NCBI GenBank assembly: GCA_903901225.1
Contig: CAIUQE010000019.1
Location: 1,146 to 65,145, forward strand
Direction: 5' to 3'
Origin: Candidatus Omnitrophota bacterium
GTDB lineage: Bacteria; Omnitrophota; Gorgyraeia; Zapsychrales; Fredricksoniimonadaceae
DNA length: 64,000 nt
Each line of letters opens with the position of its first letter. Position 1 is the first letter of the stretch. The position numbers and the translations under genes are program-made. The notes beneath the pieces were generated by a model, which saw only the letters and a list, made by a program, of their open reading frames with translations, was not told the origin of the DNA and made no database searches. This document shows, one piece after another, positions 27,256 to 63,434 of this stretch.

Positions 27256-30200
27256 ATGAAATTGGACGTGAAGCGAATTCTACATGGAATTCTTGCGGGC
27301 ATTTTGATCCTGGCATTCATTGTGCCGGATCTGCGGGTCTATGCGCAGGGAGTTATTTCTTTGCCGGAACCGGGCGTTGGATTCGCGCTGAGCCCGGCAT
27401 TTTCACCCGTGCTCCTTAAGGGCATCAAGGTCCGCTTGAACGACCCTTTCCGTTTTGATTTCATCCTGGACAAAGGCGATGGCACGGCCACGGCGGCGCA
27501 GATCAAGGCCGACGCCACCCGCCTGATCAAATACTTTCTCGCCTCCCTGACGATCCCGGAAAGCGACCTCTGGGTCAACCTTTCACCCTATGAAAAAGAC
27601 CGTATCATCCCCGACGCTTTTGGCCAGACGGGGATGGGGCGCGACCTGCTTGTCCTGGATTATCTCCTCAAAAAAACAATGGCCATGCTCCTGCACCCGG
27701 ATGGTGCGGTGGGAAAGAAATTCTGGGAGAAACTCTACGCCCGGGCCTACGAGGTCTACGGGACCACCGACATTCCCATTGACACCTTCAATAAGGTCTG
27801 GATCACCACGGACAGCGCCGAGATCTACGCGCGGTCGAAAGATGAAGGCACGCCGGTCCAGGCCGCCGTGGCTTTCGTGACCGCAACCCATCTGAAGGTC
27901 ATGCTGGAGAGTGATTACGTAGCCCTGTCCCATCAGAGGGACAGGGCGGATTCCTCTGCTCCTGCCGAGGACGTAGCCCTGTCCCGTACAACCCAAGGTG
28001 CTGACGCCATGAGCGTAGGGGAGGACTTTATGTCCTCCCGCCATGATCTCGAAAAGAATGTTCTTCGCGAGATCATCATCCCCGTCCTCGAAAAGGAAGT
28101 GAACGAGGGCCGGGATTTCAGCCAGCTGCGGCAGATCTATACCAGCCTTGTGCTGGCGACATGGTACAAGAAGGAGTTGACGAACGCCCTTGTGACCAGG
28201 GTCTACGCGGACCAGGGCAAGGTGGCCGGGATCACGCACCATGATCCCGGGATGCAGCAAAGAATATGGGACAGCTATGCCGAAACCTTCCGCAAAGGGG
28301 TGTATAACCTGATCCGGGAAGAGGTCGATCCGGCTTCTGGGGAAACCATTCCCCGGAAATATTTCTCCGGCGGGGTGGTCCTGCATGGCGATTATGCAAC
28401 GACACAAGAAAGGCCTTCGGCGGAAGGTCCTGGAGATTACGCGGCAATGACAGTGGACCTGGCGCAGGACACTACAGGGGAAGCAACGACACTCAATGAT
28501 ATCCTTGGCCCTTCCGCTGAACAGGCGGTCATGGCAAAATATTTCAGCCGGGGGAAACTTCCCAGTCATGTCAGGAAATTCTTGTCCGGCAGGAATGAGC
28601 TGGTCCGGGACAATAATACGAAAGAATTTGTCCGACGGTTGATGGATATCATGGAGACCGTTGGGCCCGATGTCGGGAACATGATCATAGACTTCATGCG
28701 GGGAGAGCTCGGCGGGAAATTTCTTCTCAAGGATTTGGTTGACCCGGGAGTTCTGTCGGTGTTGTTTCGCGGGGATAAGGATACGCAGGCGTTGCTGGAG
28801 ATGGCTGTGGAGGAGAATGACCCGCGTTACATTGGTTCAGCGCTGGCGGATTTTTTTAAGAAAGAGTTTGATCAGGAAGATGACTTTCAGACTGTCACCA
28901 GGGCGGCGCTCCTGTTGCGTTGCCTTTATGGTTTTCCCCAGGAACGGGTCCCGTTGGTATACCTTACGGCCCTTGAAACTTCCGGGATCCTTGAGCTGTT
29001 CCGGTATGTTCACCGTAATCCGGCATTAAAAGGACAGTATTCATTTCTTACTCCGGGGAATCCGATTGTTACGGCGATCCTGGAGAATAACGGGCCGGAG
29101 CTTGTGCGTTTGATCAATGAGATCCCCTGCCCGCCGGCAAAAAAAGCGGGGCTGTTGTTGCCGATAAAAAAGATGCTCGCGCACTACGGTTATCCTCTCG
29201 TTGCCATTGACGTCGGGAGCGCCGCGGATAACACGCTGCCGGCGTCTGACCCCCTTCCCATAAACATTTCCCTTCACGGTCAATTGTCCGCGATGGAGGA
29301 CATATTATCGGATACGGGCGCCGACCAGGCGTTGGTTTTGAAAGCAGTATTAAAGATCCTGGAAGATGTTAAGGAAACCCTGTCCCATGATCCGCATATT
29401 TATAAGGAATTGGTTGCCAGCTTCCAGGATGAATTGGTCAAAGCCCGAAGCAGTTACCTCCAGCAGCTAGCCATACAACACAAGGATAATGAGGATGCCC
29501 TTTTCGTTGCCGTGACGCAGGCAGAAACAGCCATGTTGCTGGGCTTTGATGAGACCGACATCGTTATTTTGAAAGCGTTCCATTTCTTGAAAAGGAATAA
29601 AACGAATCCGACCATGGAAAGGATCATCAAACACCTCAAAGAGGCGTCATCTGAGATCGATACAGCGACCCTGGAAAAGATATCTATCTTGAAGGATTTT
29701 TTCACCGGGATGATCGCTCTTGATCTTCAGGAAGAACATGTCATTTATGCCAAAGAGGCCAGGACGCTCAGGGATTTTGATATCGACCAGTTTTACCGGA
29801 ACAACATCGAGCATGGCTTTCAGGACCTGGTGATCGCCATGATGGAAGAAACAGGTGCTGACAAAGAGAGTGTGCAGAATTATTTGACAAGTAAAAAGAT
29901 ATTTCCCAACGGGCAGATGGCATTGCTTAATGTTAATGAGTATCCTGTTTTGAGAATAAATAGCAGCTTTGTCAATGAGAGGCTTTTGAAAATAATGACT
30001 CGGGATGTCAAGGATGCAATCAGGAAGATCCTGGATGGCGTGGCTGATGGCAATCAACATATCCCTTTTATTTATCGAACCACACTGGGTAACCAAAAGA
30101 ATTTTTCCATTTATGTCAGGATCAATGGAGTGATCGGGAACAATGAGTTAAGACATGCGGGGCTGGCTGACATTGAAATTAAAGACTTGTTGAATGCTTT

Positions 30201-30585
30201 GGCTAATAAAGAAAACAGCCTGATCTCGGCATTGAATACACAGGCCAGGTACACATTTCGGTCAGGAGATATAACAAAATTCTCCACCGTTATAAAAAAG
30301 ATCATACCTCTGCCGCAGGTTCAAGAAAATGTAATAAATCTCATTAAAACATCCCTGCATAACAGGGAGGTTGTTATCGTTGCCTTTGGAGCAAGGGCCA
30401 AGTTCAAAATGCGATCAGACACCAACTCAATGTTGCACGACTTTGAGCAGCATTTGAATAATGTTTCCACAGGTACTATTGAGCCTCTTCCTGTTTATGC
30501 CGATCAGGCCATGTCTCTTGAGAAAGATCTCGGCGGTATTGACCTTGATCCCGCCGCTGCTCAAAGGCATCAAGGTTTATCGTAA
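27256..30585 (+). CDS. Sandwich-family secreted protein, copy 2 (unknown cargo; C-terminal tail truncated after GGIDLDPA)
   Basis: ATG 27256 after GGAG; signal peptide (VYA-Q); LLKGIKV..DPFRFDFILDKGD, RLIKYFLASLT.PE.DLWVNLSPYEKDRI, PRKYFSGG; DQAM...GGIDL at 30502-30546. Confidence 0.88.
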   Translation: MKLDVKRILHGILAGILILAFIVPDLRVYAQGVISLPEPGVGFALSPAFSPVLLKGIKVRLNDPFRFDFILDKGDGTATAAQIKADATRLIKYFLASLTIPESDLWVNLSPYEKDRIIPDAFGQTGMGRDLLVLDYLLKKTMAMLLHPDGAVGKKFWEKLYARAYEVYGTTDIPIDTFNKVWITTDSAEIYARSKDEGTPVQAAVAFVTATHLKVMLESDYVALSHQRDRADSSAPAEDVALSRTTQGADAMSVGEDFMSSRHDLEKNVLREIIIPVLEKEVNEGRDFSQLRQIYTSLVLATWYKKELTNALVTRVYADQGKVAGITHHDPGMQQRIWDSYAETFRKGVYNLIREEVDPASGETIPRKYFSGGVVLHGDYATTQERPSAEGPGDYAAMTVDLAQDTTGEATTLNDILGPSAEQAVMAKYFSRGKLPSHVRKFLSGRNELVRDNNTKEFVRRLMDIMETVGPDVGNMIIDFMRGELGGKFLLKDLVDPGVLSVLFRGDKDTQALLEMAVEENDPRYIGSALADFFKKEFDQEDDFQTVTRAALLLRCLYGFPQERVPLVYLTALETSGILELFRYVHRNPALKGQYSFLTPGNPIVTAILENNGPELVRLINEIPCPPAKKAGLLLPIKKMLAHYGYPLVAIDVGSAADNTLPASDPLPINISLHGQLSAMEDILSDTGADQALVLKAVLKILEDVKETLSHDPHIYKELVASFQDELVKARSSYLQQLAIQHKDNEDALFVAVTQAETAMLLGFDETDIVILKAFHFLKRNKTNPTMERIIKHLKEASSEIDTATLEKISILKDFFTGMIALDLQEEHVIYAKEARTLRDFDIDQFYRNNIEHGFQDLVIAMMEETGADKESVQNYLTSKKIFPNGQMALLNVNEYPVLRINSSFVNERLLKIMTRDVKDAIRKILDGVADGNQHIPFIYRTTLGNQKNFSIYVRINGVIGNNELRHAGLADIEIKDLLNALANKENSLISALNTQARYTFRSGDITKFSTVIKKIIPLPQVQENVINLIKTSLHNREVVIVAFGARAKFKMRSDTNSMLHDFEQHLNNVSTGTIEPLPVYADQAMSLEKDLGGIDLDPAAAQRHQGLS
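27917..28039. repeat. Intragenic palindrome cluster in copy 2, including a GTAG-type REP
   Basis: GCCCTGTCCC-atcaga-GGGACAGGGC (27922-27947); direct repeat ACGTAGCCCTGTCCC (27917-27931 and 27971-27985); GTAG-GGGAGGAC-tttat-GTCCTCCC (28015-28039). Confidence 0.85.
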
Positions 30586-33500
30586 TGACCCGTTCCGGTT
30601 TGATTTCATCCTCGACAAAGGTGATGGCAAGGCCGTGGAGGCGCAGACAAAAACGGATGCCACCCGGTTGATCAAATATTTCCTTGCGTCGCTGACGGTT
30701 CCCGAGAAAGACCTGTGGGTCAACCTCTCGCCCTATGAAAAAGACCGCATCGTGCCCGAAGCCTTCGGGAAGACCGAGATGGGCCGTGATCTTCTCGCGC
30801 AGGATTACATCCTCAAGCAAATAACAGCATCGCTCATTTACCCCGATGAAAAGACCGGCAAGGAATTCTGGGCCAAAGTTTACGCCGAAGCACAGCGTCG
30901 TTACGGCACAACGGACATCCCGGTCGACACCTTCAACAAGGTCTGGATCATCCCCGAAAAAGCCACCGTCTACGAACACAAAGACGCCGTATATGTGGTT
31001 GAGAGCCGATTGAAAGTCATGTTGGAAACGGATTATATTGCGATGACGCGGGCGGACACAAGGTCCGCCCCTACAACGCAAGGTGTTGACTTCGTGAGCG
31101 TAGGGGAGGACCTTGTGTCCTCCCGCCATGAGCTCGCCAAGAATGTTCTGCGCGAGATCATCATCCCCGCCCTTGAAAAAGAAGTCAACGAAGGCCAAAA
31201 CTTCGCCACGCTGCGCCAGGTCTACAATTCCCTGATTCTAGCCACCTGGTACAAGCGCAAGGTCAAGGCCGGCATCCTTGGCCAGGCGTATGTCGACAAA
31301 AAGAAGACGGGCGGCATCGACATCAAGGACAAGAACGAAAAGGAAAAGATCTGGGCCCAGTACGTCGAGGCGTTCAGGAGGGGGGCGTATAACCTTATCA
31401 GGGAAGAATACGACTCGACGACCAGATCCACTACTCCGAGAAAATATTTCGCGGGAGGATTGGCCTTGAGTGTGGACGCCGCGATGGATATTACGTCAGA
31501 TGCGGCAAGCGTGGCAAGTATGCCTGGTGATAGATTTGAAATCATCATTTCGTCTCTTTTATCGGTCGACAGGGCGATGTCTGAGAGGGATAGTCACGTG
31601 CCGCCTACTGTTGAAATGGTAAACCGGATAAATAATCTTGTTGAAGCGCTTGGCAGTCCAGACGGGCTGGTGCGTGCGCATGCGGCTAAAGAGCTTCTTA
31701 AGATGGATGAAAAGGGAGTGAGGCAGTCGTTATTTGAAAATGGTTACTGGTCTGAAAAAGAGTCAATGTCAGGCAAGTTCAGAGCGTTGATCTTGAAAAA
31801 AGTACCGGCATGGAAGTTGGTGCTGGAGGCGTTCAACACACTGAATGTTTTTGATGGTTATGAAAAGATAGACATGCGTAATAATCCTGCAAGATATCTG
31901 GCCCTGGGCATGGAGGTCATGTTTTGGCCAAAAAGGTATTCATTTTATTCTTGGTGGAATTTTTCAACATATCTTTTAGCGATGAAGGATTATGACCAGT
32001 TTATCGATTATGTGGCTTTTAGTCCGGCCAAAGTGTTCAGCACGGAGTCGATCTTATCAGAAGTCAGAAGCACCCAAAGTTATTCGCAAAAGAAGTTCTT
32101 CCTGGATGTTTTGATCCGCCGGAAAGAGCCGAAAGCAGTTGAACTGTCTTGGGCATGGATCGGAAGAAAGGGGACTGTTAATGATTTTCACAGCGCTTTG
32201 CAGGATTCAATTGAAGGATATTTGAAGGACGCGGACCCAAAATTTGTTTCAGCAGCATTTTTCTCCCGTGAGGCCAGGAAAGGTCCTGGCAAGCTGGCGA
32301 TAGATTATTTGAATATTTTCCCGACGGCTTCGGCGCTTAAAGATGATGTGAGCATCATGTCGACATCCAGCTGCCCTTTCAACTGCAGGATGTGCGTTGC
32401 CAAGAAAATCCGCAGGGAGCGCAACCCTGATGTCCCTAAAGCAGAATTGTTCAGGCGGATCGATCAGGTCAGGGGCGCCTCGAGGATCCGGTTCGTTGGA
32501 CCCGGTGAAACGACAGCTTATGGAAAACAGGATTTATCGGAACCTGGATTTTCCAGGGACTTTATTGATGTGCTCAAGTATGCGTCCGAAGCTGCTGATG
32601 AGATCTATGTTGTGACCAACGGCCTTTTAATCCCCGCCGACATGGATCAAGCCAGAAGTCTGCTGGGAAATCTTCCCAATAACATTGTTTGGATCCTTTC
32701 AGTTGATGAGCAACACGCGGCAGAAATGGCAAGAGTTCAGGACGGCAAGAAACTTACAGATCTGGTGATGGTGTTCGAAGGATTGCATAATGAGGATCAT
32801 ATTAAGGCAGGATATTTTGTGGCGGCCACCTTTTCCGACCAATCGAAAGTTACAAGACAGTTTGGATTGAGGGATGCCGAGAAAGAGCACCGGGTTACAG
32901 CTTTTCCGATCATAGAACAAGGTGTCGCCGCAGAAGCGATGAAGGGTGAAGTTTCGTACAGGGACCCTGGCCATTACAATGATCACTCAAAGGAGGAGGG
33001 CAGGACAGACCTGTACATTGATATGGATGGCTTCGTTGTGGGTTCAAACCATGTCGCTTTCATGACTTCCGGGGAAAGAAAGACTATTCGCACGTTCAAT
33101 ATTTTTGGGAATGTTCAGGAGCAGCCCTTATCCGATTTTATGCTTATAAAATACAAGACAAGGGCGATATGGAACGACTATGGCAGTGAAAAAGAATTTT
33201 TTGAATGCTGTAAATATCTTCTCAAGGCGATCGCGTTGTATTTAGATGGTAATGAAAAAGAACTGCAAGGACAATTGACCATCATAAGGGCCATGCCAAT
33301 GAATTTGAGAAAGAAGGTTGTCGAAAAGTTACATGGGAATTTTGAATGGATAGATCTGAGGGAACGTGTATTACTTGGTATTTGGTTTAGCCGCTATTTA
33401 CCGGATTGGTGGGAGCTTATCCTAAAGAAAGACAAGGTCCATTACTTTGGCAACTTGACGCAGCTTTTTTCTTCCAAAGGTACTCAGACGGGAGATAATG

Positions 33501-33697
33501 CCGAGGTTGCACAAAACGGCGGTATCGACCTCAACCCCTCTAAAATTGACATGGCCACGAAGAACAGCGGCGCGCCGATCGATCTCAACCTCGACCCCGC
33601 GATGCTCTGGCGTATGCAGGATGCTTCCGGCGTCACACCTGTCATTGTCGGCATCCATGCTCTTGGAAGCCTGCGGCAGTTCCTCGAAATTCCGTAG
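30461..33697 (+). CDS. Sandwich-family protein, copy 3 (HEAT-like plus radical SAM cargo); family signal peptide missing
   Basis: Family homology begins at PPLLKGIKV (30551); PRKYFAGG; CPFNCRMC (32372-32395); C-terminal GGIDLNP...DPAM...GVTPVI...QFLE. Upstream in-frame ATGs lie inside copy 2. Confidence 0.8.
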   Translation: MFPQVLLSLFLFMPIRPCLLRKISAVLTLIPPLLKGIKVYRNDPFRFDFILDKGDGKAVEAQTKTDATRLIKYFLASLTVPEKDLWVNLSPYEKDRIVPEAFGKTEMGRDLLAQDYILKQITASLIYPDEKTGKEFWAKVYAEAQRRYGTTDIPVDTFNKVWIIPEKATVYEHKDAVYVVESRLKVMLETDYIAMTRADTRSAPTTQGVDFVSVGEDLVSSRHELAKNVLREIIIPALEKEVNEGQNFATLRQVYNSLILATWYKRKVKAGILGQAYVDKKKTGGIDIKDKNEKEKIWAQYVEAFRRGAYNLIREEYDSTTRSTTPRKYFAGGLALSVDAAMDITSDAASVASMPGDRFEIIISSLLSVDRAMSERDSHVPPTVEMVNRINNLVEALGSPDGLVRAHAAKELLKMDEKGVRQSLFENGYWSEKESMSGKFRALILKKVPAWKLVLEAFNTLNVFDGYEKIDMRNNPARYLALGMEVMFWPKRYSFYSWWNFSTYLLAMKDYDQFIDYVAFSPAKVFSTESILSEVRSTQSYSQKKFFLDVLIRRKEPKAVELSWAWIGRKGTVNDFHSALQDSIEGYLKDADPKFVSAAFFSREARKGPGKLAIDYLNIFPTASALKDDVSIMSTSSCPFNCRMCVAKKIRRERNPDVPKAELFRRIDQVRGASRIRFVGPGETTAYGKQDLSEPGFSRDFIDVLKYASEAADEIYVVTNGLLIPADMDQARSLLGNLPNNIVWILSVDEQHAAEMARVQDGKKLTDLVMVFEGLHNEDHIKAGYFVAATFSDQSKVTRQFGLRDAEKEHRVTAFPIIEQGVAAEAMKGEVSYRDPGHYNDHSKEEGRTDLYIDMDGFVVGSNHVAFMTSGERKTIRTFNIFGNVQEQPLSDFMLIKYKTRAIWNDYGSEKEFFECCKYLLKAIALYLDGNEKELQGQLTIIRAMPMNLRKKVVEKLHGNFEWIDLRERVLLGIWFSRYLPDWWELILKKDKVHYFGNLTQLFSSKGTQTGDNAEVAQNGGIDLNPSKIDMATKNSGAPIDLNLDPAMLWRMQDASGVTPVIVGIHALGSLRQFLEIP
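31050..31124. repeat. Inverted pair of GTAG-type REP hairpins (REP doublet) inside copy 3
   Basis: GGGCGGAC-acaag-GTCCGCCC-CTAC (31050-31074), 25-nt spacer, GTAG-GGGAGGAC-cttgt-GTCCTCCC (31100-31124). Confidence 0.88.
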
Positions 33698-33739
33698 TGA
33701 GATATCTCAAGACAGAGTATTTTCGATCCTCCGCCTTCA

Positions 33740-33768
33740 TTGACAAACATTTCCCCCTGTGATACATT
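33740..33768 (+). promoter_or_regulatory. Sigma70 promoter for bamD-lptE
   Basis: TTGACA-17 nt-TACATT with an extended TG. Confidence 0.65.
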
Positions 33769-33786
33769 GGGCGCACTGTGTTTTAT

Positions 33787-34749
33787 ATGAAAATCAGGCC
33801 TACTCTTATAGCTCTTGTTGTCGTCGCCTCCGCCATGGCCATGGCCGCGCCGGCCCATGCCTTCTGGATCTGGACGCCGGAAAGTGGCAAGTGGGTCAAT
33901 CCCAAATACTCCGTTAAGCCTTCGCCGCAGGAACAGCTGGCCTACGCCGATACTTTTTTTCAGGCGGGCAAGTACCCGGAGGCGATGCGCGAATACAAGA
34001 AACTTTTGAAGCATTATCCCAAGGCCCGCGAGGCCGCTGAGGCGCAGTTCAATATGGGCCGCGCCTGGGAGGACCTGAAGAAATTCTGGCGCGCCGTTGA
34101 AGAATACCAGAAGGTCGTGGATCGTTATCCTTTCAGCGACCTTGGCCCCAAGGTCGTGGAGCGGCAGTACGCCATCGCGGACCTTTTTCTCGAGGGTAAG
34201 GCCAAGGACCATGAGTTCGCCCAGTCATTGCTGGGGACGGATTATCAGGTCCCCGAGGTTTTCCTGAAAGTCATCAAGAACGACCCTTATGGTCCGCTCG
34301 CGCCTGTGTCCCAATACAAGATCGGTCTTTTTTACCTGGCCAAGCGTGATTACCAGCAGGCCCGTGACGCTTTTGAGAAGACGGTCAACGATTATCCGGA
34401 TTCCAAGTGGGCGGAAGCGGCGCGTTACCAGATCGCGGTCGCGGACGCCAAGCGCTCAGTCGGGGCCCAGTATGACCAAAAAACAACGAATATCGCCGTC
34501 CAGGGGTTTGAGGATTACGTGAAGCTGAACCCTGAATCCGACCTTTCCGCCTCCGCCAAGGAACAGATCAACAAATTACGGGAGAAGGAAGCGGAAAATA
34601 ATTTTGTGGTCGGTGAGTATTACGCGAAAATGAAGAGGTACAATTCCGCCAGGATATACTGGCAGACCGTCGTCGACAAGTATGCTGACACGCCCTGGGC
34701 CGCCAAAGCCTCCGCGCAGCTCAAGGCCATTGCGGGTAAAGCTTCATGA
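33787..34749 (+). CDS. bamD: Outer membrane assembly factor BamD-like TPR protein
   Basis: Signal peptide; repeated TPR/YP.S motifs; YDQ..T..A...F..Y...PES, E.NF.VG.YY; directly upstream of lptE. Confidence 0.8.
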   Translation: MKIRPTLIALVVVASAMAMAAPAHAFWIWTPESGKWVNPKYSVKPSPQEQLAYADTFFQAGKYPEAMREYKKLLKHYPKAREAAEAQFNMGRAWEDLKKFWRAVEEYQKVVDRYPFSDLGPKVVERQYAIADLFLEGKAKDHEFAQSLLGTDYQVPEVFLKVIKNDPYGPLAPVSQYKIGLFYLAKRDYQQARDAFEKTVNDYPDSKWAEAARYQIAVADAKRSVGAQYDQKTTNIAVQGFEDYVKLNPESDLSASAKEQINKLREKEAENNFVVGEYYAKMKRYNSARIYWQTVVDKYADTPWAAKASAQLKAIAGKAS

Positions 34750-35264
34750 AGAAAGCGGTCCTTCTAGTCCTGGTCCTGTTGCTGGCCGGCTGCGGTTATA
34801 GCACCAGATCCCTCCTGCCGAGCCGTTTCCGCACGATCTATATCGAGCCTTTTGAGAACAAGGTCGATTACATGAACACCACCGAGCGCAAACTTTATAT
34901 TCCCGGCATGGAAACGCGCGTGCGCGAGGCCGTGGTGGACCGCTACCTCTTCGATGGCAACCTGCGCATCGGCAACAAGGATACGGCGGACCTTGTGCTC
35001 AAGGGGCAGTTGCTGAGCTTTGAGCGCGAGCAGCTCAGCCTCCAGCCGAACGAATCTGTCCAGGAATACCGGCTTCGCGTGACCGTTGCGCTTGAGCTTG
35101 TTGATTCTGTTGAAAAGCAGCCGATGTGGAAAGAAACTGCTTTCGCGGGTGAGGCCACATATTATACGGTTGGTCCTTTGGCCAAACCTGAAGCCCAGGC
35201 GATCGACGAAGCCATCAAAGACCTGGCCTTGCGCGTGGTCGCCCGTACCGTTGAAGCCTGGTAA
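34746..35264 (+). CDS. lptE: LPS assembly lipoprotein LptE family
   Basis: Lipobox LAGC-GY; TIYI.PF.N, AD.VL.G, EYRL..TV..., E..AI; lies before holA. Confidence 0.82.
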   Translation: MKKAVLLVLVLLLAGCGYSTRSLLPSRFRTIYIEPFENKVDYMNTTERKLYIPGMETRVREAVVDRYLFDGNLRIGNKDTADLVLKGQLLSFEREQLSLQPNESVQEYRLRVTVALELVDSVEKQPMWKETAFAGEATYYTVGPLAKPEAQAIDEAIKDLALRVVARTVEAW

Positions 35265-35300
35265 GGCCAGCTTCTCCCAACCCCGGCCTGATATTGAAAC

Positions 35301-36189: not shown

Positions 36190-36244
36190 GAGTTTTACTC
36201 CTTGTTGTTTGTTAGGTTCGAAAGTATAACAAACGGGTTTTTTT

Positions 36245-37816: not shown

Positions 37817-37832
37817 AAAGGGATGGTCCTTC

Positions 37833-49940: not shown

Positions 49941-49949
49941 GAAAAAACC

Positions 49950-52945
<2,996 letters not shown>

Positions 52946-52949
<4 letters not shown>

Positions 52950-54460: not shown

Positions 54461-54830
54461 CCGTATTTTTAAAGTGTTGATCATTGATGACGATAAAGGT
54501 TTGCAGAGGATGCTCCAGATCGTGCTGGGCACTCACGGGTTTGATATTGTATCCGCGTTCACGGGTGAAGAAGGGCTTTCACTGGCCAAAGCGGAGAAGC
54601 CGGATGCCATCGTCCTGGACGTCATGATGCCGGGGATCAAGGGGCGGGATGTGTGCCGCACCCTCAAGGCGGATGCCGCCACGCGGGATATTCCCGTGCT
54701 TATCCTGAGCGCGAAAGATTCGGATGATGATATCGCCGCGGAGCTTGCCGCCGGCGCGGTCGCCCATCTTACGAAGCCCGTCAATTCCACGTCGCTTGTC
54801 CGGAAGGTTAAGCAGATCCTGGGGGCCTGA
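54447..54830 (+). CDS. Single-domain response regulator
   Basis: LIIDDD, PD.IVLDVMMP, LSA, KP. Confidence 0.92.
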   Translation: MSDHDRIFKVLIIDDDKGLQRMLQIVLGTHGFDIVSAFTGEEGLSLAKAEKPDAIVLDVMMPGIKGRDVCRTLKADAATRDIPVLILSAKDSDDDIAAELAAGAVAHLTKPVNSTSLVRKVKQILGA

Positions 54831-55714: not shown

Positions 55715-55715
55715 C

Positions 55716-55880
55716 ATGTTGAAAAAAACACTATTCTTTATTATCGGGTTCGCGCTGGTCATTGCCGGCATCACCCTGACGCTGCGCGACTGGTTTTTCC
55801 TGGTCATGGTCTTTCGCGGGGTTATCGGCCCGCTCATGGCCGTTATCGGGCTGGTCGTCCTGACGCTGATCAAAGATTGA
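55716..55880 (+). CDS. Small 2-TM membrane protein (54 aa)
   Basis: GGAGAGG RBS; MLKKTLFFIIGFALVIAGITLTLRDWFFLVMVFRGVIGPLMAVIGLVVLTLIKD*; below the ORF-track length cutoff. Confidence 0.7.
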   Translation: MLKKTLFFIIGFALVIAGITLTLRDWFFLVMVFRGVIGPLMAVIGLVVLTLIKD

Positions 55881-55943
55881 TTTGGACAGAACGCCGCGGC
55901 TCGGCTATATTAGGTTGTCATTTCCCCTAACAGGAGAATCATT

Positions 55944-56567
55944 ATGTTCCAGTTGTTCCCCCACGAAGTGAATTTTTTTGACCTTTTCGAGAAACAGTCC
56001 GCGTGCCTGCTGGATGCGGCGGCGGCGCTGAAGTCCGCGGTCGCCAAGGGCACCGTCGACATTGACGCGCTCCAGAGGGTCCACCAGATCGAGGAAGAAG
56101 CGGACAAGGCTTCCTTCGCGGTCATTTCGCAGCTCAACAAGTCCTTCATTACGCCGTTCGACCGTGAAGACATCCACGCGCTGACGAAAGCGCTCGACGA
56201 TGTTGTCGACATGATGAACACGATCGCCAACCGCATGTCCGTCTACAAGATCAATGAGGTCCGCCAGAACCTCATCGCCTTCGCGCTCGTCATAGAAGAG
56301 TCCGTCCGGGCCCTCAATGAGGCGGTCCGCAAGATGCGCGACATGAAGCATTACCAGCTGGTCATGAACGCCTGCATCGAGGTCAGCCGCCTCGAGAACA
56401 TCTCCGATTCCATGCGGGATACCGCGCTGGCCGGGCTGTTCGAGACGGAGAAGGACCCCATCATCGTCATCAAGTGGAAAGAGCTTTATGAGGACGCGGA
56501 AATGGTGCTGGACATCTGTGAGGACGCGGCCCATGTCGTTGAATCCATCATGCTCAAGCAGGCGTAA
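55944..56567 (+). CDS. DUF47 phosphate transport regulator
   Basis: FF.LFE, E.EAD, FITPFDREDI..L...LDDV.D, LEN..D, D.CED.A; directly upstream of PiT. Confidence 0.92.
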   Translation: MFQLFPHEVNFFDLFEKQSACLLDAAAALKSAVAKGTVDIDALQRVHQIEEEADKASFAVISQLNKSFITPFDREDIHALTKALDDVVDMMNTIANRMSVYKINEVRQNLIAFALVIEESVRALNEAVRKMRDMKHYQLVMNACIEVSRLENISDSMRDTALAGLFETEKDPIIVIKWKELYEDAEMVLDICEDAAHVVESIMLKQA

Positions 56568-56573
56568 GGCATC

Positions 56574-57575
56574 ATGACCCTGGAAATATTTTTTCTTGTT
56601 TTTCTCGCTTTGGTGTTCGATTTTTTGAACGGGTTCCACGACTCCGCCAACGCGATCGCCACCATCGTGTCGACGCGCGTCCTGACACCGCGCCAGGCGG
56701 TGCTGTGGGCCGGTTGTTTCGAGTTCCTTTCCCTTGTCATTTTCTTCTTTATCGGGCTGCACGTGGCGAACACGGTCGGTAAGGGCATCATCGATATCCA
56801 TATCGTGAACAATGAGGTCATTTTTGGCGCGCTGATGGGGGCGTGCAGCTGGAACATCATCACCTGGTATTTCGGCATCCCGACCAGTTCTTCGCACGCG
56901 TTGATCGGCGGCATGATCGGTTCGGCGCTGGTCAAGGCCGGCCCCAAGGCCCTGGTCGCGGCGGGGATCATTAAGACCGTGTCGTTCATTTTCATATCGC
57001 CGCTCGTGGGGCTTGTGCTGGGTGTCATCTTGGGGCGGCTGGTGTACTGGCTTTTCCGGCATTCCTCGCCTTACAAGGTGGATTTCTTCTTCCGCAAGGG
57101 GCAATTGTTCTCGGCCGCGCTTTACAGCATGGGGCACGGCGGCAATGACGCGCAAAAGACCATGGGCATCATCGCCAGCCTGCTTTTTTCGGCCGGCCTC
57201 CTGGGCGAGAAATTCTATGTCCCGGTGTGGGTCATGGTCGCGTGTTTCGCCGCGATATCGTGCGGCATCATGTTCGGCGGCTGGCGCATTGTCAAGACCA
57301 TGGGGCAGAAGATCGCCAAGCTCAAGCCTGTGGACGGGTTCTGCGCCGAGACGGGCGCCGCGATGATGCTGTTCACCGCGACGTTCTTCGGCGTGCCGGT
57401 ATCCACGACGCAGACGATCACCGGGTCCATTATGGGCGTTGGTTCGCGCCGGCGCCTGAGCGCGGTGAAATGGGGCGTGGCGGGCAATATTGTTGTGGCC
57501 TGGATCATCACGATCCCGTGTTCCGCCGCCATTGCCGCGCTGGCCTACGGGGTGGCGCACACGATCAGAGGATGA
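56574..57575 (+). CDS. Inorganic phosphate transporter (PiT family)
   Basis: NGFHDSANAIAT.VSTR, GIPTSSSHALIGG, HGGNDAQK.MG, PVSTT. Confidence 0.95.
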   Translation: MTLEIFFLVFLALVFDFLNGFHDSANAIATIVSTRVLTPRQAVLWAGCFEFLSLVIFFFIGLHVANTVGKGIIDIHIVNNEVIFGALMGACSWNIITWYFGIPTSSSHALIGGMIGSALVKAGPKALVAAGIIKTVSFIFISPLVGLVLGVILGRLVYWLFRHSSPYKVDFFFRKGQLFSAALYSMGHGGNDAQKTMGIIASLLFSAGLLGEKFYVPVWVMVACFAAISCGIMFGGWRIVKTMGQKIAKLKPVDGFCAETGAAMMLFTATFFGVPVSTTQTITGSIMGVGSRRRLSAVKWGVAGNIVVAWIITIPCSAAIAALAYGVAHTIRG

Positions 57576-57576
57576 C

Positions 57577-58215
57577 ATGCTCCTGCGTTTAAGAAAATAT
57601 TTCCTTTCCGGCCTTGCCGTTTTCCTGCCGCTGGTTTTTGCCATTTATGTTTTTATCTGGATCCTGAATTTCATGGAAAGCCTCCTGGGGCGGTACCTGA
57701 GGCCTTTCTTCATTGAGTATTACGATTTTTATTTCTGGGGCCTGGGGATATTGATCCTTCTACTGGTCGTTCTTTTCTGCGGCTTCTGCGTGACCCATTA
57801 TTTTGGCAAGGTGATCCACCGCGTCACGGAGCGCATTGTCCTGCGCATCCCGCTCTTGGGTAGCATTTATCCCGCTTTCCGTGAGATCGCGGGGTTCCTT
57901 TTCAGGGAACACGCTTCGAACATCCAACAGGTCGTGATGGTCGAGTGGCCCTGCAAGGGGATGTACATGATCGCGTTTCTGACCAACAAGACCGCTGAGC
58001 GCATCGCCGTGAAGGCCGGCAGGAAAATGTCGAATGTCATGATCCCGCATGTTCCCAATCCTCTCGTGGGTTTTGTCGTTATGGTGCCGGATGAAGATAT
58101 CGTTCCTTTACCCATCTCGATCGAGGAAGCGGTGAAGATCATTGTTTCCGGCGGCGTCATTAACGGCGAACCCCATCCCTATCTTCCCGGTCATGATGGC
58201 GTCACGAAAGCCTGA
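57577..58215 (+). CDS. DUF502 membrane protein
   Basis: YF..GL...LP, RIPL..SIY, V..EWP..G, P..PNP..GF, EEA.K.IVSGG. Confidence 0.9.
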   Translation: MLLRLRKYFLSGLAVFLPLVFAIYVFIWILNFMESLLGRYLRPFFIEYYDFYFWGLGILILLLVVLFCGFCVTHYFGKVIHRVTERIVLRIPLLGSIYPAFREIAGFLFREHASNIQQVVMVEWPCKGMYMIAFLTNKTAERIAVKAGRKMSNVMIPHVPNPLVGFVVMVPDEDIVPLPISIEEAVKIIVSGGVINGEPHPYLPGHDGVTKA

Positions 58216-58861
58216 CCTCAGCGGCGTCAAACTTGTTGTTTTTGACATTGACGGCACCCTTGTGGACGCGTATCCCGCTATCACCGACAGCGTGAATCAT
58301 ATGCTCAAGCGCATGGGTTACCCGCCGCAGTCGCTGGCCACGGTCAAGCGTTCGGTCGGCTGGGGTGTGGACGGCCTGGTGCGCAAGTTCGTTCCCGAAG
58401 AGCAGGCTGCCGCGGCGCTGGCTATTTTTCGACGGCATCATGACGCGCGCCTGCGCCGGAATATCCGGGTGCTTCCGGGCGTGAAGGCCCTTTTGCCTTT
58501 CCTGAAGCGGCGCGGCTGTGTCCTTGCCATCGCGAGCAACCGTCCCGCGAAATTCTGCCGGATCATCCTCAAGACGCTGGGCATCGGCGGATATTTCAAA
58601 TATGTTGTCTGCGGGGATTCGGTCAAGCGCGCCAAACCTTATCCCGACATGCTCAAGTGCATCCTGAAAAAGAGCGGTATCCGGGCCGGCCAGGCGGTTT
58701 ACGTGGGTGATATGACGGTTGATATCGAGTGCGGCCGCGCGGCAGGCGTTCCCACGCTGGCTGTGCCCACCGGTTCCTGCACGCGCGCCGAGCTCAAGGC
58801 CGCCAGGCCTGGCGCGTTGATCCGGCGTATCAGTGATCTGCGGGCGTTTCTCAGGCCTTAA
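58193..58861 (+). CDS. HAD-family hydrolase (phosphoglycolate phosphatase-like)
   Basis: FDIDGTLVD, ASN, KPYPD, YVGD...DI. Confidence 0.92.
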   Translation: MMASRKPDLSGVKLVVFDIDGTLVDAYPAITDSVNHMLKRMGYPPQSLATVKRSVGWGVDGLVRKFVPEEQAAAALAIFRRHHDARLRRNIRVLPGVKALLPFLKRRGCVLAIASNRPAKFCRIILKTLGIGGYFKYVVCGDSVKRAKPYPDMLKCILKKSGIRAGQAVYVGDMTVDIECGRAAGVPTLAVPTGSCTRAELKAARPGALIRRISDLRAFLRP

Positions 58862-58936
58862 AAAAACATTTTTTTTGTTTTTGAAGAGTGCTGATGTGTT
58901 AAAATCATCACATTCAGGGACTTTTACGGGGAAATC

Positions 58937-59326
58937 ATGTTGAAAAAAAGTTTTTTGGCGATGATCCTGGCAGGCATATGCGCTTTTTCAGCGAGCGGTT
59001 GTATTTATTTGGCCGTCGGGGCTGCGGGTGTCGTTGGCGGTTATGTGGTAAGCCCTGATACGGTGGAAGGCAGTGTGGCCCACTCTTTTGAAGACACCTG
59101 GAACGCGGCCAAAGAGATCACGGGCATCATGGGCAAGATCGTCGAGGAGAACAGCTCCCAGGGTGTCCTTCTGGCTGACATCAATGCGGCCCGCGTGACG
59201 GTCACGCTGGTATCCGTCAACGGGACAACTACCAAGATATCCATCAAAGCGCGTAAATCCTTCATGCCCAAGGTTGACCTGGCCCAGGATGTCTACATCA
59301 AGATCGTCAACAGTTTTGAGCGTTGA
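58937..59326 (+). CDS. DUF3568-like lipoprotein
   Basis: Lipobox ASGC followed by a Gly/Ala-rich segment and a small alpha/beta domain. Confidence 0.6.
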   Translation: MLKKSFLAMILAGICAFSASGCIYLAVGAAGVVGGYVVSPDTVEGSVAHSFEDTWNAAKEITGIMGKIVEENSSQGVLLADINAARVTVTLVSVNGTTTKISIKARKSFMPKVDLAQDVYIKIVNSFER

Positions 59327-59347
59327 TCTCCCCACGACATTTTTGAT

Positions 59348-59375
59348 TTGACAACAAGCGGCGGACGGATAGAAT
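59348..59375 (+). promoter_or_regulatory. Sigma70 promoter of tRNA-Phe
   Basis: TTGACA-16 nt-TAGAAT, 14 nt before the tRNA. Confidence 0.7.
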
Positions 59376-59389
59376 AGCTTTTCTATTTC

Positions 59390-59462
59390 GCCGAGATAGC
59401 TCAGTTGGTAGAGCGAAGGACTGAAAATCCTTGCGTCCCCAGTTCAATTCTGGGTCTCGGCA
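59390..59462 (+). tRNA. tRNA-Phe (GAA); CCA not encoded
   Basis: Acceptor GCCGAGA/TCTCGGC, D arm GCTC/GAGC, anticodon arm AAGGA-CTGAAAA-TCCTT, T arm CCCAG-TTCAATT-CTGGG. Confidence 0.97.
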
Positions 59463-59479
59463 CTTTTTTCTTCCGCAGC

Positions 59480-59522
59480 GCAAGAAACCCGCTTCCCGAA
59501 AGGGCGCGGGTTTCTTGCTTAT
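59480..59522 (+). terminator. Hairpin terminator after tRNA-Phe
   Basis: GCAAGAAACCCGC...CCCGAAAGGG...GCGGGTTTCTTGC followed by TTATT. Confidence 0.7.
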
Positions 59523-59679
59523 TGGGGAAGAAAAAAGTGCCCTGGCGAGGCTCCGCCCGATCCGGGGCATATTCTTTCTATGAGGGGTTCGACTTTCGTC
59601 CTTTTTTTGCTTTTTTCTCTAAAGTCCGATAAAATAGGCTTCGTTCCGTAATGAAAAAATATTTCTCAGGGAGGTGCGT

Positions 59680-60393
59680 ATGGTCAGGAAAATACTGTTG
59701 CTGGCGGTGGTCGTGGCGGGTGCGATGATGGCGGGGCTGGCGCGTGCCGAGCAGGTTCAGCCGCTGCAGGTGGCTCTTTTCACGCCGGTGCAGCTTGTCC
59801 CGCCGGGTGAGTTTATTCGGGGGCTTCGTCTTGACCTGATCTACGGCGAGAATGAAAACGTGAGCGGCATTGACCTTGGCCTGGCGAACAGGACGGACGC
59901 GAATTTTGAAGGGATCCAGTGGGGCGCGGTTAACCTCAACGGCGGCCACACCTTCGGCTGGCAGTCGGCTTTCGTGAATATTGATGGCACGCGGATGGTG
60001 GGCTTGCAGACGGGCCTTCTGAATACGGTCGACGGCGACACGACTGGTATCCAATGGGGTGTTGTCAATTGGAACGCGGGGTTCGTCCATGGCTGGCAGG
60101 AAGGGCTGTTCAATTATGTCGGGGGCGAATTCATTGGCTGGCAGGATGGCGGGTTAAACGTTGTCCAGGGCGGGGCCAAGGGCCTTCAGACCGGCCTTGT
60201 GAACCTTGTGGACGGCCCGTTCAGCGGGGTGCAGGTCGGGTTCATCTGGAATTACGCGCAGTCCGTGCATGGCGTGCAGATCGGCCTTGTGAATGCCACG
60301 AAGTCGCTCAATGGCCTGCAGGTCGGCATCGCCAATTACAATGGCAACAAACAGCCGTTCGAGTTTTTCCCTATCGTTAACTGGTCATTCTAA
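59680..60393 (+). CDS. Exported Gly/Gln/Asn-rich repeat protein (LA_2272-like)
   Basis: Signal peptide; repeated G.Q.G.VN units; C-terminal PIVNWSF. Confidence 0.75.
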   Translation: MVRKILLLAVVVAGAMMAGLARAEQVQPLQVALFTPVQLVPPGEFIRGLRLDLIYGENENVSGIDLGLANRTDANFEGIQWGAVNLNGGHTFGWQSAFVNIDGTRMVGLQTGLLNTVDGDTTGIQWGVVNWNAGFVHGWQEGLFNYVGGEFIGWQDGGLNVVQGGAKGLQTGLVNLVDGPFSGVQVGFIWNYAQSVHGVQIGLVNATKSLNGLQVGIANYNGNKQPFEFFPIVNWSF

Positions 60394-60411
60394 GGCAGGA
60401 GGAATCGCCTC

Positions 60412-60726
60412 ATGAAAAAGTGCCCTTTTTGCGCGGAAGAGATCCAGGATGCGGCCATCAAGTGCCGTCATTGCAATGAGTTCCTTGACCCGGGCCGCAA
60501 GCCGGTCAATGATACCCGGCCGTGGTATTTTCGCACGACGACGATCGTTACCGCGATCCTCTGCGTGATGGCACTGGCGCTTCCGCTGGTGTGGTTCAAT
60601 CCTTATTACAGCCGCCTGAAGAAGATCATCATTTCGGTGATCGTGATCGTGGCGACGTATTTCCTGTGGACCTGGACGTCGCAGGCGCTGCAGACGATCC
60701 AGGGGACGTACAAAATGGTTTTGTGA
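60412..60726 (+). CDS. Zinc-ribbon membrane protein
   Basis: KKCPFCAEEI...AIKCRHC plus two TMs; AGGAGG RBS. Confidence 0.82.
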   Translation: MKKCPFCAEEIQDAAIKCRHCNEFLDPGRKPVNDTRPWYFRTTTIVTAILCVMALALPLVWFNPYYSRLKKIIISVIVIVATYFLWTWTSQALQTIQGTYKMVL

Positions 60727-60959
60727 GAATGCCGGGGACATATTGAGTTATTCCGGATCCTGGCCTTCTGTCAAGCCTTCTCATCAGGAATTATAAGTAT
60801 TTCGTATTAAAGCACACTATAAAGCCTCTATTCTTCAGCTACTTACAAGAAATAGTAGTAGCGTTTTCTCGCCGGACCGTTCGATCGCATACCCCATATA
60901 TATTTATAGACTATACTTACTTTAACGGCGTGGTGGCCGTCTGACCAAGGGGCGAGGGG

Positions 60960-63434
60960 ATGGTGAAGAAATTCGTTAAAAGATCGATCGCGTTATTGAC
61001 GCTTGTGACCTTCATGGCCATGAGCGTGCCGTCGTCTTATGCCCAGAGTGTTGTTCTGCCCAAACCCGGGACCATGGTGGCCCTGAGTGAAAGCTTCACG
61101 CCGCCGCTCTTAAAAGGCATTAAAGTTTATCCGGACAATCCATTCCGTCTTGATTTCATCCTTGATAAGGGCAATTCCAGCGATCCCGCTGATAAGTTAA
61201 AGGACGAGTCTTCCCGCCTGATCAAGTATTTCCTCGCGTCGGTCACGGTCCCTGAAAAAGATCTCTGGGTCAATCTCAGCCCTTATGAAAAAGACCGCAT
61301 TGTGCCGGAGGCGTTTGGCCAGACCGAGATGGGGCGTGACCTTTTGGCGCAGGATTATCTTTTGAAGCAGATCACAGCGTCGGTGATTTATCCCGAAGGC
61401 GAAGTCGGCAAGAAATTCTGGGCCAAGGTTTACGCCGAGGCGCAGAGCCGTTATGGCACAACCGATATCCCGGTCGACACCTTCAACAAGGTCTGGATCG
61501 TCCCGGAGAAGGCGGTCGTCTACGAGAACAAGGATGCCGCCTTTGTAGTTGAAAGCAAACTCAAGGTAATGCTGGAGTCAGATTATGTAGCCGCCACGCA
61601 AAATGAGGAGATGGTGCGTAGGGGCGGGTCTGTGACCCGCCCACATGAGCAAGATTCGCAAGAATTCGCCAAACCGATCCTGCGCGAAGTCGTCATTCCC
61701 ATTCTTGAGAAAGAGGTCAACGAAAGCCGGAATTTCGCCCAACTGCGGCAGGTCTATAATTCCCTCATTCTCGCCGTTTGGTTCAAGGACAAGGTCAAAG
61801 AAAGTATTTTCGGCAAGGCCTATGTCGACCGCGACAAGATCGCGGGGGTTGCTATCAACGATAAGGCGGAGAAGGAGAAGATCTGGGCGCGGTATGTGGA
61901 GTCGTTCAAGAAGGGTGTATATAACTATATCAAGGAAGAGAATGACCCCGGTACGCAAGATGTCATCCCGCGTAAATATTTCTCCGGCGGATTTAATATG
62001 AGGCTCGATCATGCGATGGTTGTGACCCATGACGCCGGGATGATCGCAGGGTTAAGGTCAGCTTTTAAGGTGATGGTTTTGTCGGTGGCGTTAACCATTG
62101 CAGGTGGTCAGACGCCTTTGGTCAATATGCCAGTAAAAATCCCGCCGGTTATCGCAGGTTCAGTAACAGATCGTTTGTTTAAATGGGTCGGTCATCAGTC
62201 ATGGATCACTTTTCAAATTTTTTCTATTGAAGGATGGAACGAGTACCTTATGTCAATTCGGCGACCTTTGAATACTGTAGGGGAAGCATCTTTTAATACT
62301 GGTACTGGATTGCAAATAATTCGTCTACCAATGCAGCCTAGAGAGGGAGGAGTTATAATACGTCCTCTTATTCATGAAATATCACATGCGATCATTAATC
62401 GAGAACATTTTCTAGGAAATCGAACATTTTTACTGCAAAAAGTCGAGGCTTTGGAAAAGGCGGTATTGGATAACGGGACACAGGAAGACATAAAGGCTTT
62501 TTACAAGATGTTTATGTTCTATAAATATCAATATAATTCACTATCACAATGGATCGTGGGTTATAAAAATGGTGAGATCGATGTTGATGAGTTATTGTCT
62601 CAGGTTAAGATCGTTAATCGTCAGGGAAGTGGATGGCGCGATGATTCTTATTTGAAGTCAGCGAAGATCGGGTTTGAAATGTTTTTGGAGCGAGGTAAGA
62701 TCCAATTGGGTGAGAAAGTCGTTTCGACAAGTACCTCGAATATTCCCTCTGGGCATCTCAGCGAGGATCGGGATTGGTGGGAAAAGATGAAGTCTGATCA
62801 GAAGTTGCAAGATTATATTGAGTCTTATTCTTGTCCGAACAGTGAGGCTTCCAATGAATTATTCGTTTATTTTGTTACGGCGTATACCAAGTGGCAGTAT
62901 TTCTATTATTTTGGTTCGACCCCTCAACCTCTTTCTGGCGCTCAAGAGGTGCATAAAAGTTTATCTGGTTTATCGCATAGTGGGAAGCTTGAGAAGACTG
63001 ATGATTCTAAGAAGCCAGAGCAGCATGAGAAGCCAGTAATGGCTGAAAAGTCTGGAGAAGCAGGACCTGCAATATTTGCTGTGGTGGAGCAATTCATAAT
63101 AGAAGCAGGGCTTCCGCCGGATATTGTTAGTTATGATAATTCAATGTCTTTCGCGTTGGCTCCTGAAAATATGTCTATACCTGATGAAAAGCCGTTACTG
63201 GGTGAGGGCAAACCTGTCAAGGCTGATAACGGTGGTATCGACCTAACCCGCGACAGGATGGGCCTTCAGGTTCACAGCGGCGGGCAAGGCGTTCAATTCA
63301 ACTTTGATCCTGCCATGATCCAGCAGTTACAGAATGCTCCCGGCCTGGCACCGGTGATCATCGACATCCAGCCGATGACTACCACTGTGCCGATGTTCCT
63401 GGGGCTTAAGGATGATGCGCCGGCGCAAGGCTGA
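60960..63434 (+). CDS. Sandwich-family secreted protein, copy 4 (HExxH zincin-like cargo)
   Basis: Signal peptide (SYA-Q); full conserved N-terminal domain to PRKYFSGG; LIHEISH (62373-62387); C-terminal GGIDL...DPAM...GLAPVIIDIQP...FLG. Confidence 0.9.
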   Translation: MVKKFVKRSIALLTLVTFMAMSVPSSYAQSVVLPKPGTMVALSESFTPPLLKGIKVYPDNPFRLDFILDKGNSSDPADKLKDESSRLIKYFLASVTVPEKDLWVNLSPYEKDRIVPEAFGQTEMGRDLLAQDYLLKQITASVIYPEGEVGKKFWAKVYAEAQSRYGTTDIPVDTFNKVWIVPEKAVVYENKDAAFVVESKLKVMLESDYVAATQNEEMVRRGGSVTRPHEQDSQEFAKPILREVVIPILEKEVNESRNFAQLRQVYNSLILAVWFKDKVKESIFGKAYVDRDKIAGVAINDKAEKEKIWARYVESFKKGVYNYIKEENDPGTQDVIPRKYFSGGFNMRLDHAMVVTHDAGMIAGLRSAFKVMVLSVALTIAGGQTPLVNMPVKIPPVIAGSVTDRLFKWVGHQSWITFQIFSIEGWNEYLMSIRRPLNTVGEASFNTGTGLQIIRLPMQPREGGVIIRPLIHEISHAIINREHFLGNRTFLLQKVEALEKAVLDNGTQEDIKAFYKMFMFYKYQYNSLSQWIVGYKNGEIDVDELLSQVKIVNRQGSGWRDDSYLKSAKIGFEMFLERGKIQLGEKVVSTSTSNIPSGHLSEDRDWWEKMKSDQKLQDYIESYSCPNSEASNELFVYFVTAYTKWQYFYYFGSTPQPLSGAQEVHKSLSGLSHSGKLEKTDDSKKPEQHEKPVMAEKSGEAGPAIFAVVEQFIIEAGLPPDIVSYDNSMSFALAPENMSIPDEKPLLGEGKPVKADNGGIDLTRDRMGLQVHSGGQGVQFNFDPAMIQQLQNAPGLAPVIIDIQPMTTTVPMFLGLKDDAPAQG
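61618..61642 (+). repeat. GTAG-type REP hairpin inside copy 4
   Basis: GTAG-GGGCGGGTC-tgt-GACCCGCCC (perfect 9-bp stem). Confidence 0.85.

What the first reader, a model, noticed from the sequence alone, without database searches (positions are those of the whole stretch)
27917..61642. GTAG-type REP palindromes translated in frame at the same linker of the conserved domain
Seen: just after LKVMLE.DY.A, copy 2 has GTAG-GGGAGGAC-tttat-GTCCTCCC (28015-28039), copy 3 has an inverted doublet (31050-31074 and 31100-31124), and copy 4 has GTAG-GGGCGGGTC-tgt-GACCCGCCC (61618-61642). Copies 2 and 3 read the element as V-G-E-D; copy 4 reads it in another frame as R-R-G-G-S, which points to independent acquisitions. 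Established: GTAG plus a GC-rich hairpin is the substrate motif of REP-associated tyrosine transposases (RAYT, HUH family), and REPs are normally extragenic. I noticed no such GTAG hairpin in the housekeeping genes or intergenic regions here. Inference: the loop is a REP insertion hotspot, or REP nicking helps spread and recombine this family.
Basis: partly seen in the sequence, partly recalled or inferred. Interest (0 to 1): 0.78.

Follow-up and report, generated by a model that had tools for sequence, protein, structure and literature searches.

The report
Mobile palindromes colonise Omnitrophota protein loops
Short GTAG-tagged DNA hairpins (REP elements) sit in frame in one variable loop of a 45-copy Omnitrophota protein family and in almost no other gene of this genome; they were likely inserted rarely by REP transposases and then likely copied between gene copies by gene conversion, a new and concentrated case of a known phenomenon.

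Summary
All four hairpins are real and in frame. They are true REPs: two REP-flanked Y1 transposase genes (RAYT-like) are in the genome, and 49 copies are intergenic, which the window did not show. In coding DNA, types A and B occur only in this family (25 hits, against 0 in about 1,870 other predicted genes); 18 of 45 paralogues carry a GTAG REP in loop 2. Copies 2 and 3 share one cassette; copy 4 is independent. Related genomes fill the same loop, and up to four other loops, with their own repeat types. Loop content follows the genome, not the paralogue tree (AU tests reject monophyly for 7 of 8 groups), so loop-only gene conversion is the likely amplifier. Crossovers do not cluster at the loop, so 'REP nicking recombines the family' is unsupported. 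An IS110, an IS481-like element and nested palindromes also landed here. In-frame REPs in flexible loops are published (PMC3733652, PMC6006769), and this scan noted the same loops before (e1-871818, e1-4980811). New variant of a known kind.

The parts
28015..28039 (+). REP type A, second arm of the cassette, in frame in loop 2 of family copy 2 (the first arm is deleted in this copy)
   Evidence: loop and both flanks lie in one 3,497-nt unitig with no differences
27919..27975 (+). type C double-hairpin element in loop 2 of copy 2; found only in family loops
31050..31074 (-). REP type A, first (antisense) arm of the tag-inward doublet in copy 3
31100..31124 (+). REP type A, second arm of the doublet in copy 3, 25 nt after the first
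61618..61642 (+). REP type B (9-bp stem), in a different frame, in loop 2 of copy 4
20952..21017 (-). loop 2 of copy 1, holding a degenerate type C element and no type A or B REP
16572..21665 (-). family copy 1 (1697 aa): signal-like N-terminus, conserved domain, variable cargo, conserved tail
27256..30585 (+). family copy 2 (about 1110 aa); loop 2 at 27919-28059; tail truncated
30461..33697 (+). family copy 3 (1078 aa, weak radical-SAM cargo); loop 2 at 31037-31144; lacks the usual N-terminus
60960..63434 (+). family copy 4 (824 aa); loop 2 at 61587-61676

Best explanation
The hairpins are genuine GTAG-type REP elements lying in frame in surface loops of a large Omnitrophota protein family, where they were likely placed by rare RAYT-mediated insertions, likely kept because only loop insertions leave the protein intact, and likely multiplied by short-patch gene conversion among the roughly 45 paralogues. 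Shown: element identity, a resident REP-flanked Y1 transposase, confinement of coding copies to this family, many independent element types across genomes, and loop content that follows the genome rather than the paralogue tree while both flanks keep their own ancestry. Inferred: the RAYT nicks single-stranded REP DNA and transfers it (shown in vitro for other RAYTs only); the conserved flanks act as homology arms for ordinary homologous recombination; redundancy makes loop changes cheap; hairpins already present attract second-order inserts (nested palindromes, IS110, IS481-like). On this reading the loop is a passive, self-amplifying sink and the added peptides have no specific function.
For: RAYT-like genes at C8 and C32 are flanked by inverted type A REPs. 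Type A and B hits: 25 in family genes, 0 in other genes, 49 intergenic, 11 in element ends. The reading frame that would give a stop is never used. Loop 2 is a low-confidence coil between helices (pLDDT about 58 at residues 191-200). In 143 loops from 29 relatives, tagged hairpins number 35 in loop 2 (2.6/kb), 14 in loop 1 (1.9/kb) and 9 elsewhere in the domain (0.08/kb). In G007 and G010 the loop element also surrounds a resident Y1 transposase gene. Carriers of cassettes A, B and C are not clades (p-AU 2e-5, 2e-11, 1e-7). Genes that are sisters on both sides of the loop carry different cassettes. Loop 12-mer sharing is 51 of 271 pairs within genomes against 12 of 1004 between genomes. Type C is 86% identical among paralogues whose third codon positions are 42% identical. 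An IS110 sits directly after the tag of a type B REP in loop 2 of C37.
Against: Tolerance alone does not obviously explain why about 150 kb of the family's own variable cargo holds only one small palindrome, and 1.9 Mb of other genes only one. The REP arms of cassette A are 89% and 95% identical while the spacer between them is 52%, so the arms are being preserved or refreshed by something; intergenic doublets show the same pattern (spacers 37.5%), but it is not explained. The saturated spacer means cassette A is old, so part of its scatter could be loss. The one repeated loop with no tagged hairpin (G022) was not shown to move (p-AU 0.062). The two transposases score just under the NCBIfam RAYT cut-off (79.3 and 71.8 against 80). 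The relatives' sample is the best-scoring 144 of about 1,050 matches, biased to one subfamily.
Confidence: 0.62

Rival explanations
1. RAYT-driven spread: the transposase nicks at loop REPs and actively transfers the loop cassette into paralogues, so REP-bearing loops home through the family and diversify an exposed surface.
For: Loop-only exchange with both flanks kept. Arms conserved while the spacer decays. 18 of 45 genes carry a GTAG REP in loop 2. RAYT matches in 35 of 41 genomes. The hairpin-free G022 loop was not shown to be polyphyletic.
Against: No crossover excess at the loop. Cassettes with no extragenic copy or known enzyme (type C) or with a changed tag (G002) spread as widely. 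More than half of the paralogues have no REP. No direction of transfer was shown.
Confidence: 0.15
2. Each copy is a separate insertion into a DNA site that the transposase prefers just after the conserved motif.
For: Many element types, two frames and both doublet orientations reach the same loop. Several loop REP variants are identical to intergenic variants.
Against: All type A cassettes share frame, a 25-nt spacer and a tag-inward layout not seen in intergenic doublets. Type C has no extragenic donor in G000, G007 or G022. At least five different loops are hit. Spacers next to family genes are not REP-enriched (3 of 27 against 61 of 809, p 0.45).
Confidence: 0.09
3. The hairpins are selected as mRNA or DNA structure at this point of the gene (pausing, stabilisation), so REPs are co-opted and then lost in some copies.
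For: Arms are far more conserved than the spacer or third codon positions. Type C shows paired stem changes in two copies.
Against: Over half of the paralogues lack such an element and sister genes differ. Intergenic doublets show the same arm conservation. Paired changes can arise by template switching at palindromes (own knowledge).
Confidence: 0.1
4. The loop-flank mosaics are short-read assembly chimeras made at the repeats.
For: Unitigs of the probable source runs break at the REPs of copies 3 and 4.
Against: The loop of copy 2 lies inside one 3,497-nt unitig with no differences. Trees of the two flanks largely agree, whereas chimeras would give crossovers at the loop. The pattern recurs in many separately assembled genomes.
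Confidence: 0.03

Closest known systems
TnpA-REP subclass 2.4 (RAYT group 4) and its REPs; Quentin et al. 2018, PMC6006769 (passages read)
   Same: Long REPs with three G-C pairs at the stem base, 'double-foot' forms, and in-frame REP insertions that recur at one variable region of one protein family (the transposase itself, between HUH and Y). The G007 transposase shows exactly this.
   Different: Here the recurrent recipient is an unlinked 45-copy family of proteins with signal-like N-termini, and the inserts appear to spread among paralogues. The subclass was not assigned by profile.
Intragenic GTAG and CGTC REPs; Di Nocera et al. 2013, PMC3733652 (abstract, section 15 and passages read)
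   Same: Single and dimeric REPs in frame in genes, adding 20-30 residues, proposed to be neutral in flexible linkers or loops.
   Different: There the targets are varied unrelated genes, mostly at different sites. Here all coding type A and B copies fall in loops of one family.
Rickettsia palindromic elements (RPE), as cited in PMC3733652; original papers not read
   Same: Palindromic repeats translated inside proteins.
   Different: RPEs are spread over unrelated proteins. No paralogue amplification or mix of element families at one loop is described in what was read.
REP-targeting insertion sequences (ISPpu9, ISPpu10 and others); Tobes and Pareja 2006, PMC1525189 (abstract read)
   Same: An IS110-family element is inserted in a REP, directly after the tag (C37).
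   Different: The target REP is inside a gene, which the IS breaks. There is one copy only, so specificity is untested.

Membership tests
GTAG-type REP | 5' GTAG tag directly before a GC-rich hairpin | tested here: met
GTAG-type REP | multicopy, mostly intergenic, often as inverted doublets | tested here: met
   49 intergenic type A and B copies in 27 internal spacers plus contig ends, many as doublets
GTAG-type REP | the same repeats flank a Y1 (HUH) transposase gene | tested here: met
   type A at C8:27016/27701/27734 and C32:11860/12571 around PF01797 genes; no transposase flanked by type B, C, G or H was found in G000
GTAG-type REP | single-strand cleavage and strand transfer by the cognate enzyme | not testable with these tools
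   needs biochemistry (assay described in PMC8266576)
RAYT (TnpA-REP) | HUH motif and catalytic Tyr, no tnpB, REP-flanked | tested here: met
   motifs read in the translations; no TnpB-sized partner among the listed ORFs (by eye)
RAYT (TnpA-REP) | reaches the NF047646 cut-off | tested here: inconclusive
   79.3 and 71.8 bits against 80; the IS200 model scores far lower, 32.7 and 29.4 against 55
TnpA-REP subclass 2.4 | REPs with three basal G-C pairs, or double-foot REPs | tested here: met
   types A and B; double-foot forms in G000 loop 1, G003 and G007
TnpA-REP subclass 2.4 | in-frame REP inside the transposase between HUH and Y | tested here: inconclusive
   present in the G007 homologue (35% identical), absent in both G000 copies
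TnpA-REP subclass 2.4 | placement by the subclass profile or tree | not tested
   no such profile at hand
Rickettsia-type RPE | in-frame insertion across many unrelated genes | tested here: not met
   0 type A or B copies in non-family genes of G000; partly met by another element in G010
REP-targeting IS110 | IS110 transposase inserted at a fixed point of a REP | tested here: inconclusive
   PF01548 and PF02371 gene inserted right after the tag, but a single copy
nick-driven shuffling or homing system | recombination breakpoints cluster at the element | tested here: not met
   crossovers 10 against 12.9 and 3 against 6.8 expected; loop-only conversion tracts are invisible to this test
nick-driven shuffling or homing system | directional, enzyme-dependent spread into empty alleles | not testable with these tools
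   needs population or experimental data

The most novel reading that the evidence does not exclude
Omnitrophota use RAYT/REP chemistry as a loop-diversifying system: REP-bearing loop cassettes are nicked and transferred between dozens of paralogous exported proteins, swapping surface loops while leaving the fold and cargo intact. This would be the first case of REPs homing through a protein family, and would give a defined natural donor-recipient pair for testing how REPs spread, which is still an open question.
Probability: 0.15. Interest if true: 0.8.

Novelty: new variant of a known kind. Interest (0 to 1): 0.48.

Why it matters
How REPs spread is still unresolved (PMC8266576). This family records many independent insertions at alignable sites, with empty and filled alleles, nested inserts and cognate transposases in the same genomes, so junctions, frame selection and copying can be read directly. 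It also shows loop-only sequence exchange in a large undescribed Omnitrophota protein family of unknown fold. If the process is passive it is a vivid but ordinary extension of published intragenic REPs; if RAYT-driven it would be a new diversification mechanism.

Tried and rejected
Crossover clustering at loop 2: not found. Locus-level targeting: spacers beside family genes are not REP-enriched. REPs in other long ORFs of G000: the overlaps were judged shadow frames by eye and by a self-trained codon model; that model is rough (1,920 genes). Known family or fold for the conserved domain: no Pfam or NCBIfam hit, no Foldseek match at E<=0.001, best VIA-align Z 3.6; the ESM Atlas gave Omnitrophota clusters without a named family. 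Rfam: only a tRNA in the window. Expression: no RNA holder listed. Cognate transposase for each relative's loop element: the top-scoring RAYT loci of G002, G003, G004, G005, G006 and G040 are flanked by other repeats or none, and only G001 matched type A. Two IS hits in loops (C27, C36) were first counted separately, then read as one split gene with a 4-nt target duplication (inferred across a contig gap). Monophyly test for the G022 loop: inconclusive. Whether REP-free loops also fold into hairpins was not tested. Seven literature searches found no paper on REPs in this family; supplements were not read.

Full report
Observation. The window is G000:C19:1146-65145. The four hairpins are at the stated places and frames. 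Three are type A (GTAG, 8-bp stem, 5-nt loop) and one is type B (9-bp stem, 3-nt loop), with folding z-scores of -3.8 to -6.1. Genome-wide, GTAG precedes a hairpin 23.6 times per 1000 sites against 2.3-6.3 for 12 control tetramers. The feature is real.

The host family. A profile built from the genome finds 48 ORF segments, which reduce to 45 genes after merging C9/C27 (contig overlap), the two halves of C37, and C27/C36 (inferred). Most have a signal-like N-terminus, a conserved domain of about 330 residues, a variable cargo and a short conserved tail. There are 4,334 homologues among 6,725 candidates, and the named ones are Omnitrophota; 37 of 41 genomes searched have the family. No Pfam, NCBIfam or PDB match was found for the domain. 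In the AlphaFold model (mean pLDDT 77, pTM 0.76) loop 2 runs from the end of helix 176-191 through a coil with pLDDT about 58 to helix 207-214.

They are REPs with a resident enzyme. Two PF01797 genes (C8, C32) have HUH and Tyr motifs and are bracketed by inverted type A copies. They score 79.3 and 71.8 on the RAYT model (cut-off 80) and far lower on IS200. With a self-trained gene model (1,920 genes, 2.05 Mb coding) the 85 type A and B hits fall as 25 in family genes, 0 in other genes, 49 intergenic and 11 in the ends of a multicopy element. Two of the 25 are a contig-overlap duplicate and one is the IS-split copy in C37. By hand this is about 5 per kb of loop 2 against 0.15 per kb of intergenic DNA. 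By my count, 12 genes carry cassette A, 5 type B, 1 a third GTAG type (H), 10 the double hairpin C and 2 a purine/pyrimidine palindrome (F); one gene has a double-foot REP in loop 1. Sense-strand REPs use two frames and never the one that gives a stop. Spacers beside family genes are not enriched (3 of 27 against 61 of 809), so the effect is specific to the loops.

Independent or inherited? Both. Cassette A has one layout everywhere (tags inward, 25-nt spacer, one frame), so copies 2 and 3 are one event; copy 4 is another. In relatives I examined 143 loops from 29 genomes, taken from the 144 best-scoring listed or returned places of about 1,050 matches. A motif-free scan found 35 tagged hairpins in loop 2 (2.6/kb), 14 in loop 1 (1.9/kb) and 9 in the rest of the domain (0.08/kb); eight of the nine mark three further insertion sites. 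The types differ by genome, and doublets in G001 and G004 have the opposite orientation. In G002, 10 of 11 sites of its element are in loop 2 and the eleventh is at a contig end. In G007, 9 of 15 sites examined are in loops 1 or 2 and 6 surround a transposase that itself holds an in-frame copy. In G010, 7 of 15 examined are in loop 2, four surround a Y1 transposase, one is intergenic, and three lie in other genes (a XerC-like integrase, a class III aminotransferase, an ABC ATPase). So other genes do take such inserts where the element is abundant, but the family is the main coding sink.

How cassettes move. On trees of the domain with loop 2 removed, carriers of A, B and C need 7, 5 and 8 changes and are rejected as clades. 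Trees of the two flanks largely agree, and genes that are sisters on both sides carry different cassettes: C14 against copy 4, C9/27 against C49_17738, and the two C34 genes. A copying model finds no excess of crossovers at the loop (10 of 179 against 12.9 expected; 3 of 94 against 6.8). Among 51 genes of five relatives, loops share 12-mers in 51 of 271 within-genome pairs and 12 of 1004 between-genome pairs; monophyly is rejected for 4 of 5 groups but not for the hairpin-free G022 loop (p 0.062). These groups were defined from loop sequence, not from the tree. Type C is 86% identical across paralogues with 42% third-position identity and was found only in family loops in G000, G007 and G022 (3 of 251 genomes matched). 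Together this points to loop-only gene conversion. Against a simple picture, the arms of A are 89% and 95% identical but the spacer only 52%, equal to third positions, so A is old and its arms are preserved or refreshed; intergenic doublets behave alike.

Second-order inserts. Small palindromes are nested inside two A and two B copies. An IS110 sits right after the tag of a type B REP in C37, matching known REP-targeting IS (PMC1525189, abstract). An IS481-like element (family name recalled from its ends, not tested) splits loop 2 of the C27/C36 gene.

Assembly. The loop of copy 2 lies in one 3,497-nt unitig of the probable source runs; unitigs break at the REPs of copies 3 and 4. These runs are not independent of the genome.

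Mechanism. Most likely (0.62): rare RAYT-made insertions, selection for in-frame loop positions, amplification by conversion between conserved flanks, then secondary insertion into the hairpins. RAYT-driven homing (0.15), targeted repeated insertion (0.09), selected RNA or DNA structure (0.10) and artefact (0.03) remain. Single-strand cleavage and strand transfer are shown for other RAYTs, and the dissemination route is still unknown (PMC8266576, passages read).

Relation to what is known. In-frame REPs in flexible loops are described by Di Nocera et al. (PMC3733652; abstract, section 15, passages). Quentin et al. (PMC6006769; passages) report recurrent in-frame REP insertion within subclass 2.4 transposase genes. 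Two Omnitrophota preprints (10.64898/2026.06.07.730766: abstract and term search, with no use of 'palindrom'; 10.1101/2023.11.21.568195: passages) showed no description of this family or its loops in what I read. Their supplements are closed, and the supplements of the two REP papers were not read; any of these could bear on novelty. Seven searches found no direct report. Earlier notes of this scan saw the same loops. Verdict: new variant of a known kind, interest 0.48.

Noticed in passing
window 30461-30585: Copy 2's tail is cut short and runs out of frame into the conserved start of copy 3, which lacks the usual N-terminus; this looks like a deletion between tandem paralogues.
   Followed up: no
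G000 contig ends (C6, C7, C12, C13, C15, C16, C19, C23, C26, C29, C35:77700-77971): An unassembled multicopy element carries a type A REP about 100 nt inside one end (11 copies).
   Followed up: partly
G000:C37:199591-200730 (L256): Single-copy IS110 inserted directly after the tag of a REP inside a family gene; its non-coding end could be checked for a bridge RNA that matches the REP.
   Followed up: partly
G000:C27:1-141, C36:39960-40099, C42, C5, C44, C39, C4 ends: An IS481-like element; three of its junctions lie beside palindromic repeats.
   Followed up: partly
G000:C35:54239-54259 (L259): A type F palindrome in frame in a GT9 heptosyltransferase, the only such insert found in a non-family gene of this genome.
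   Followed up: partly
L163, L174, L175 (G010): An A/T-tailed palindrome that flanks a Y1 transposase is also in frame in a XerC-like integrase, a class III aminotransferase and an ABC ATPase fusion.
   Followed up: partly
G000:C22:14453-14617 and C49:32607-32720: Type C occurs as 54-nt tandem copies (three and two) within loop 2.
   Followed up: no
G000:C21:14809-15400: Cargo-less remnant: a partial conserved domain with a REP doublet joined out of frame to the conserved tail.
   Followed up: no
G000:C4:1-1671: A Hint/intein-like segment with an inserted domain, followed by repeats of the kind seen in large surface proteins (read by eye).
   Followed up: no
L143, L146, L079 (G003); L112, L133 (G010): REPs occupy up to four different sites of one domain and often replace, rather than lengthen, the native residues, ending on the conserved leucine that starts the next helix.
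   Followed up: partly
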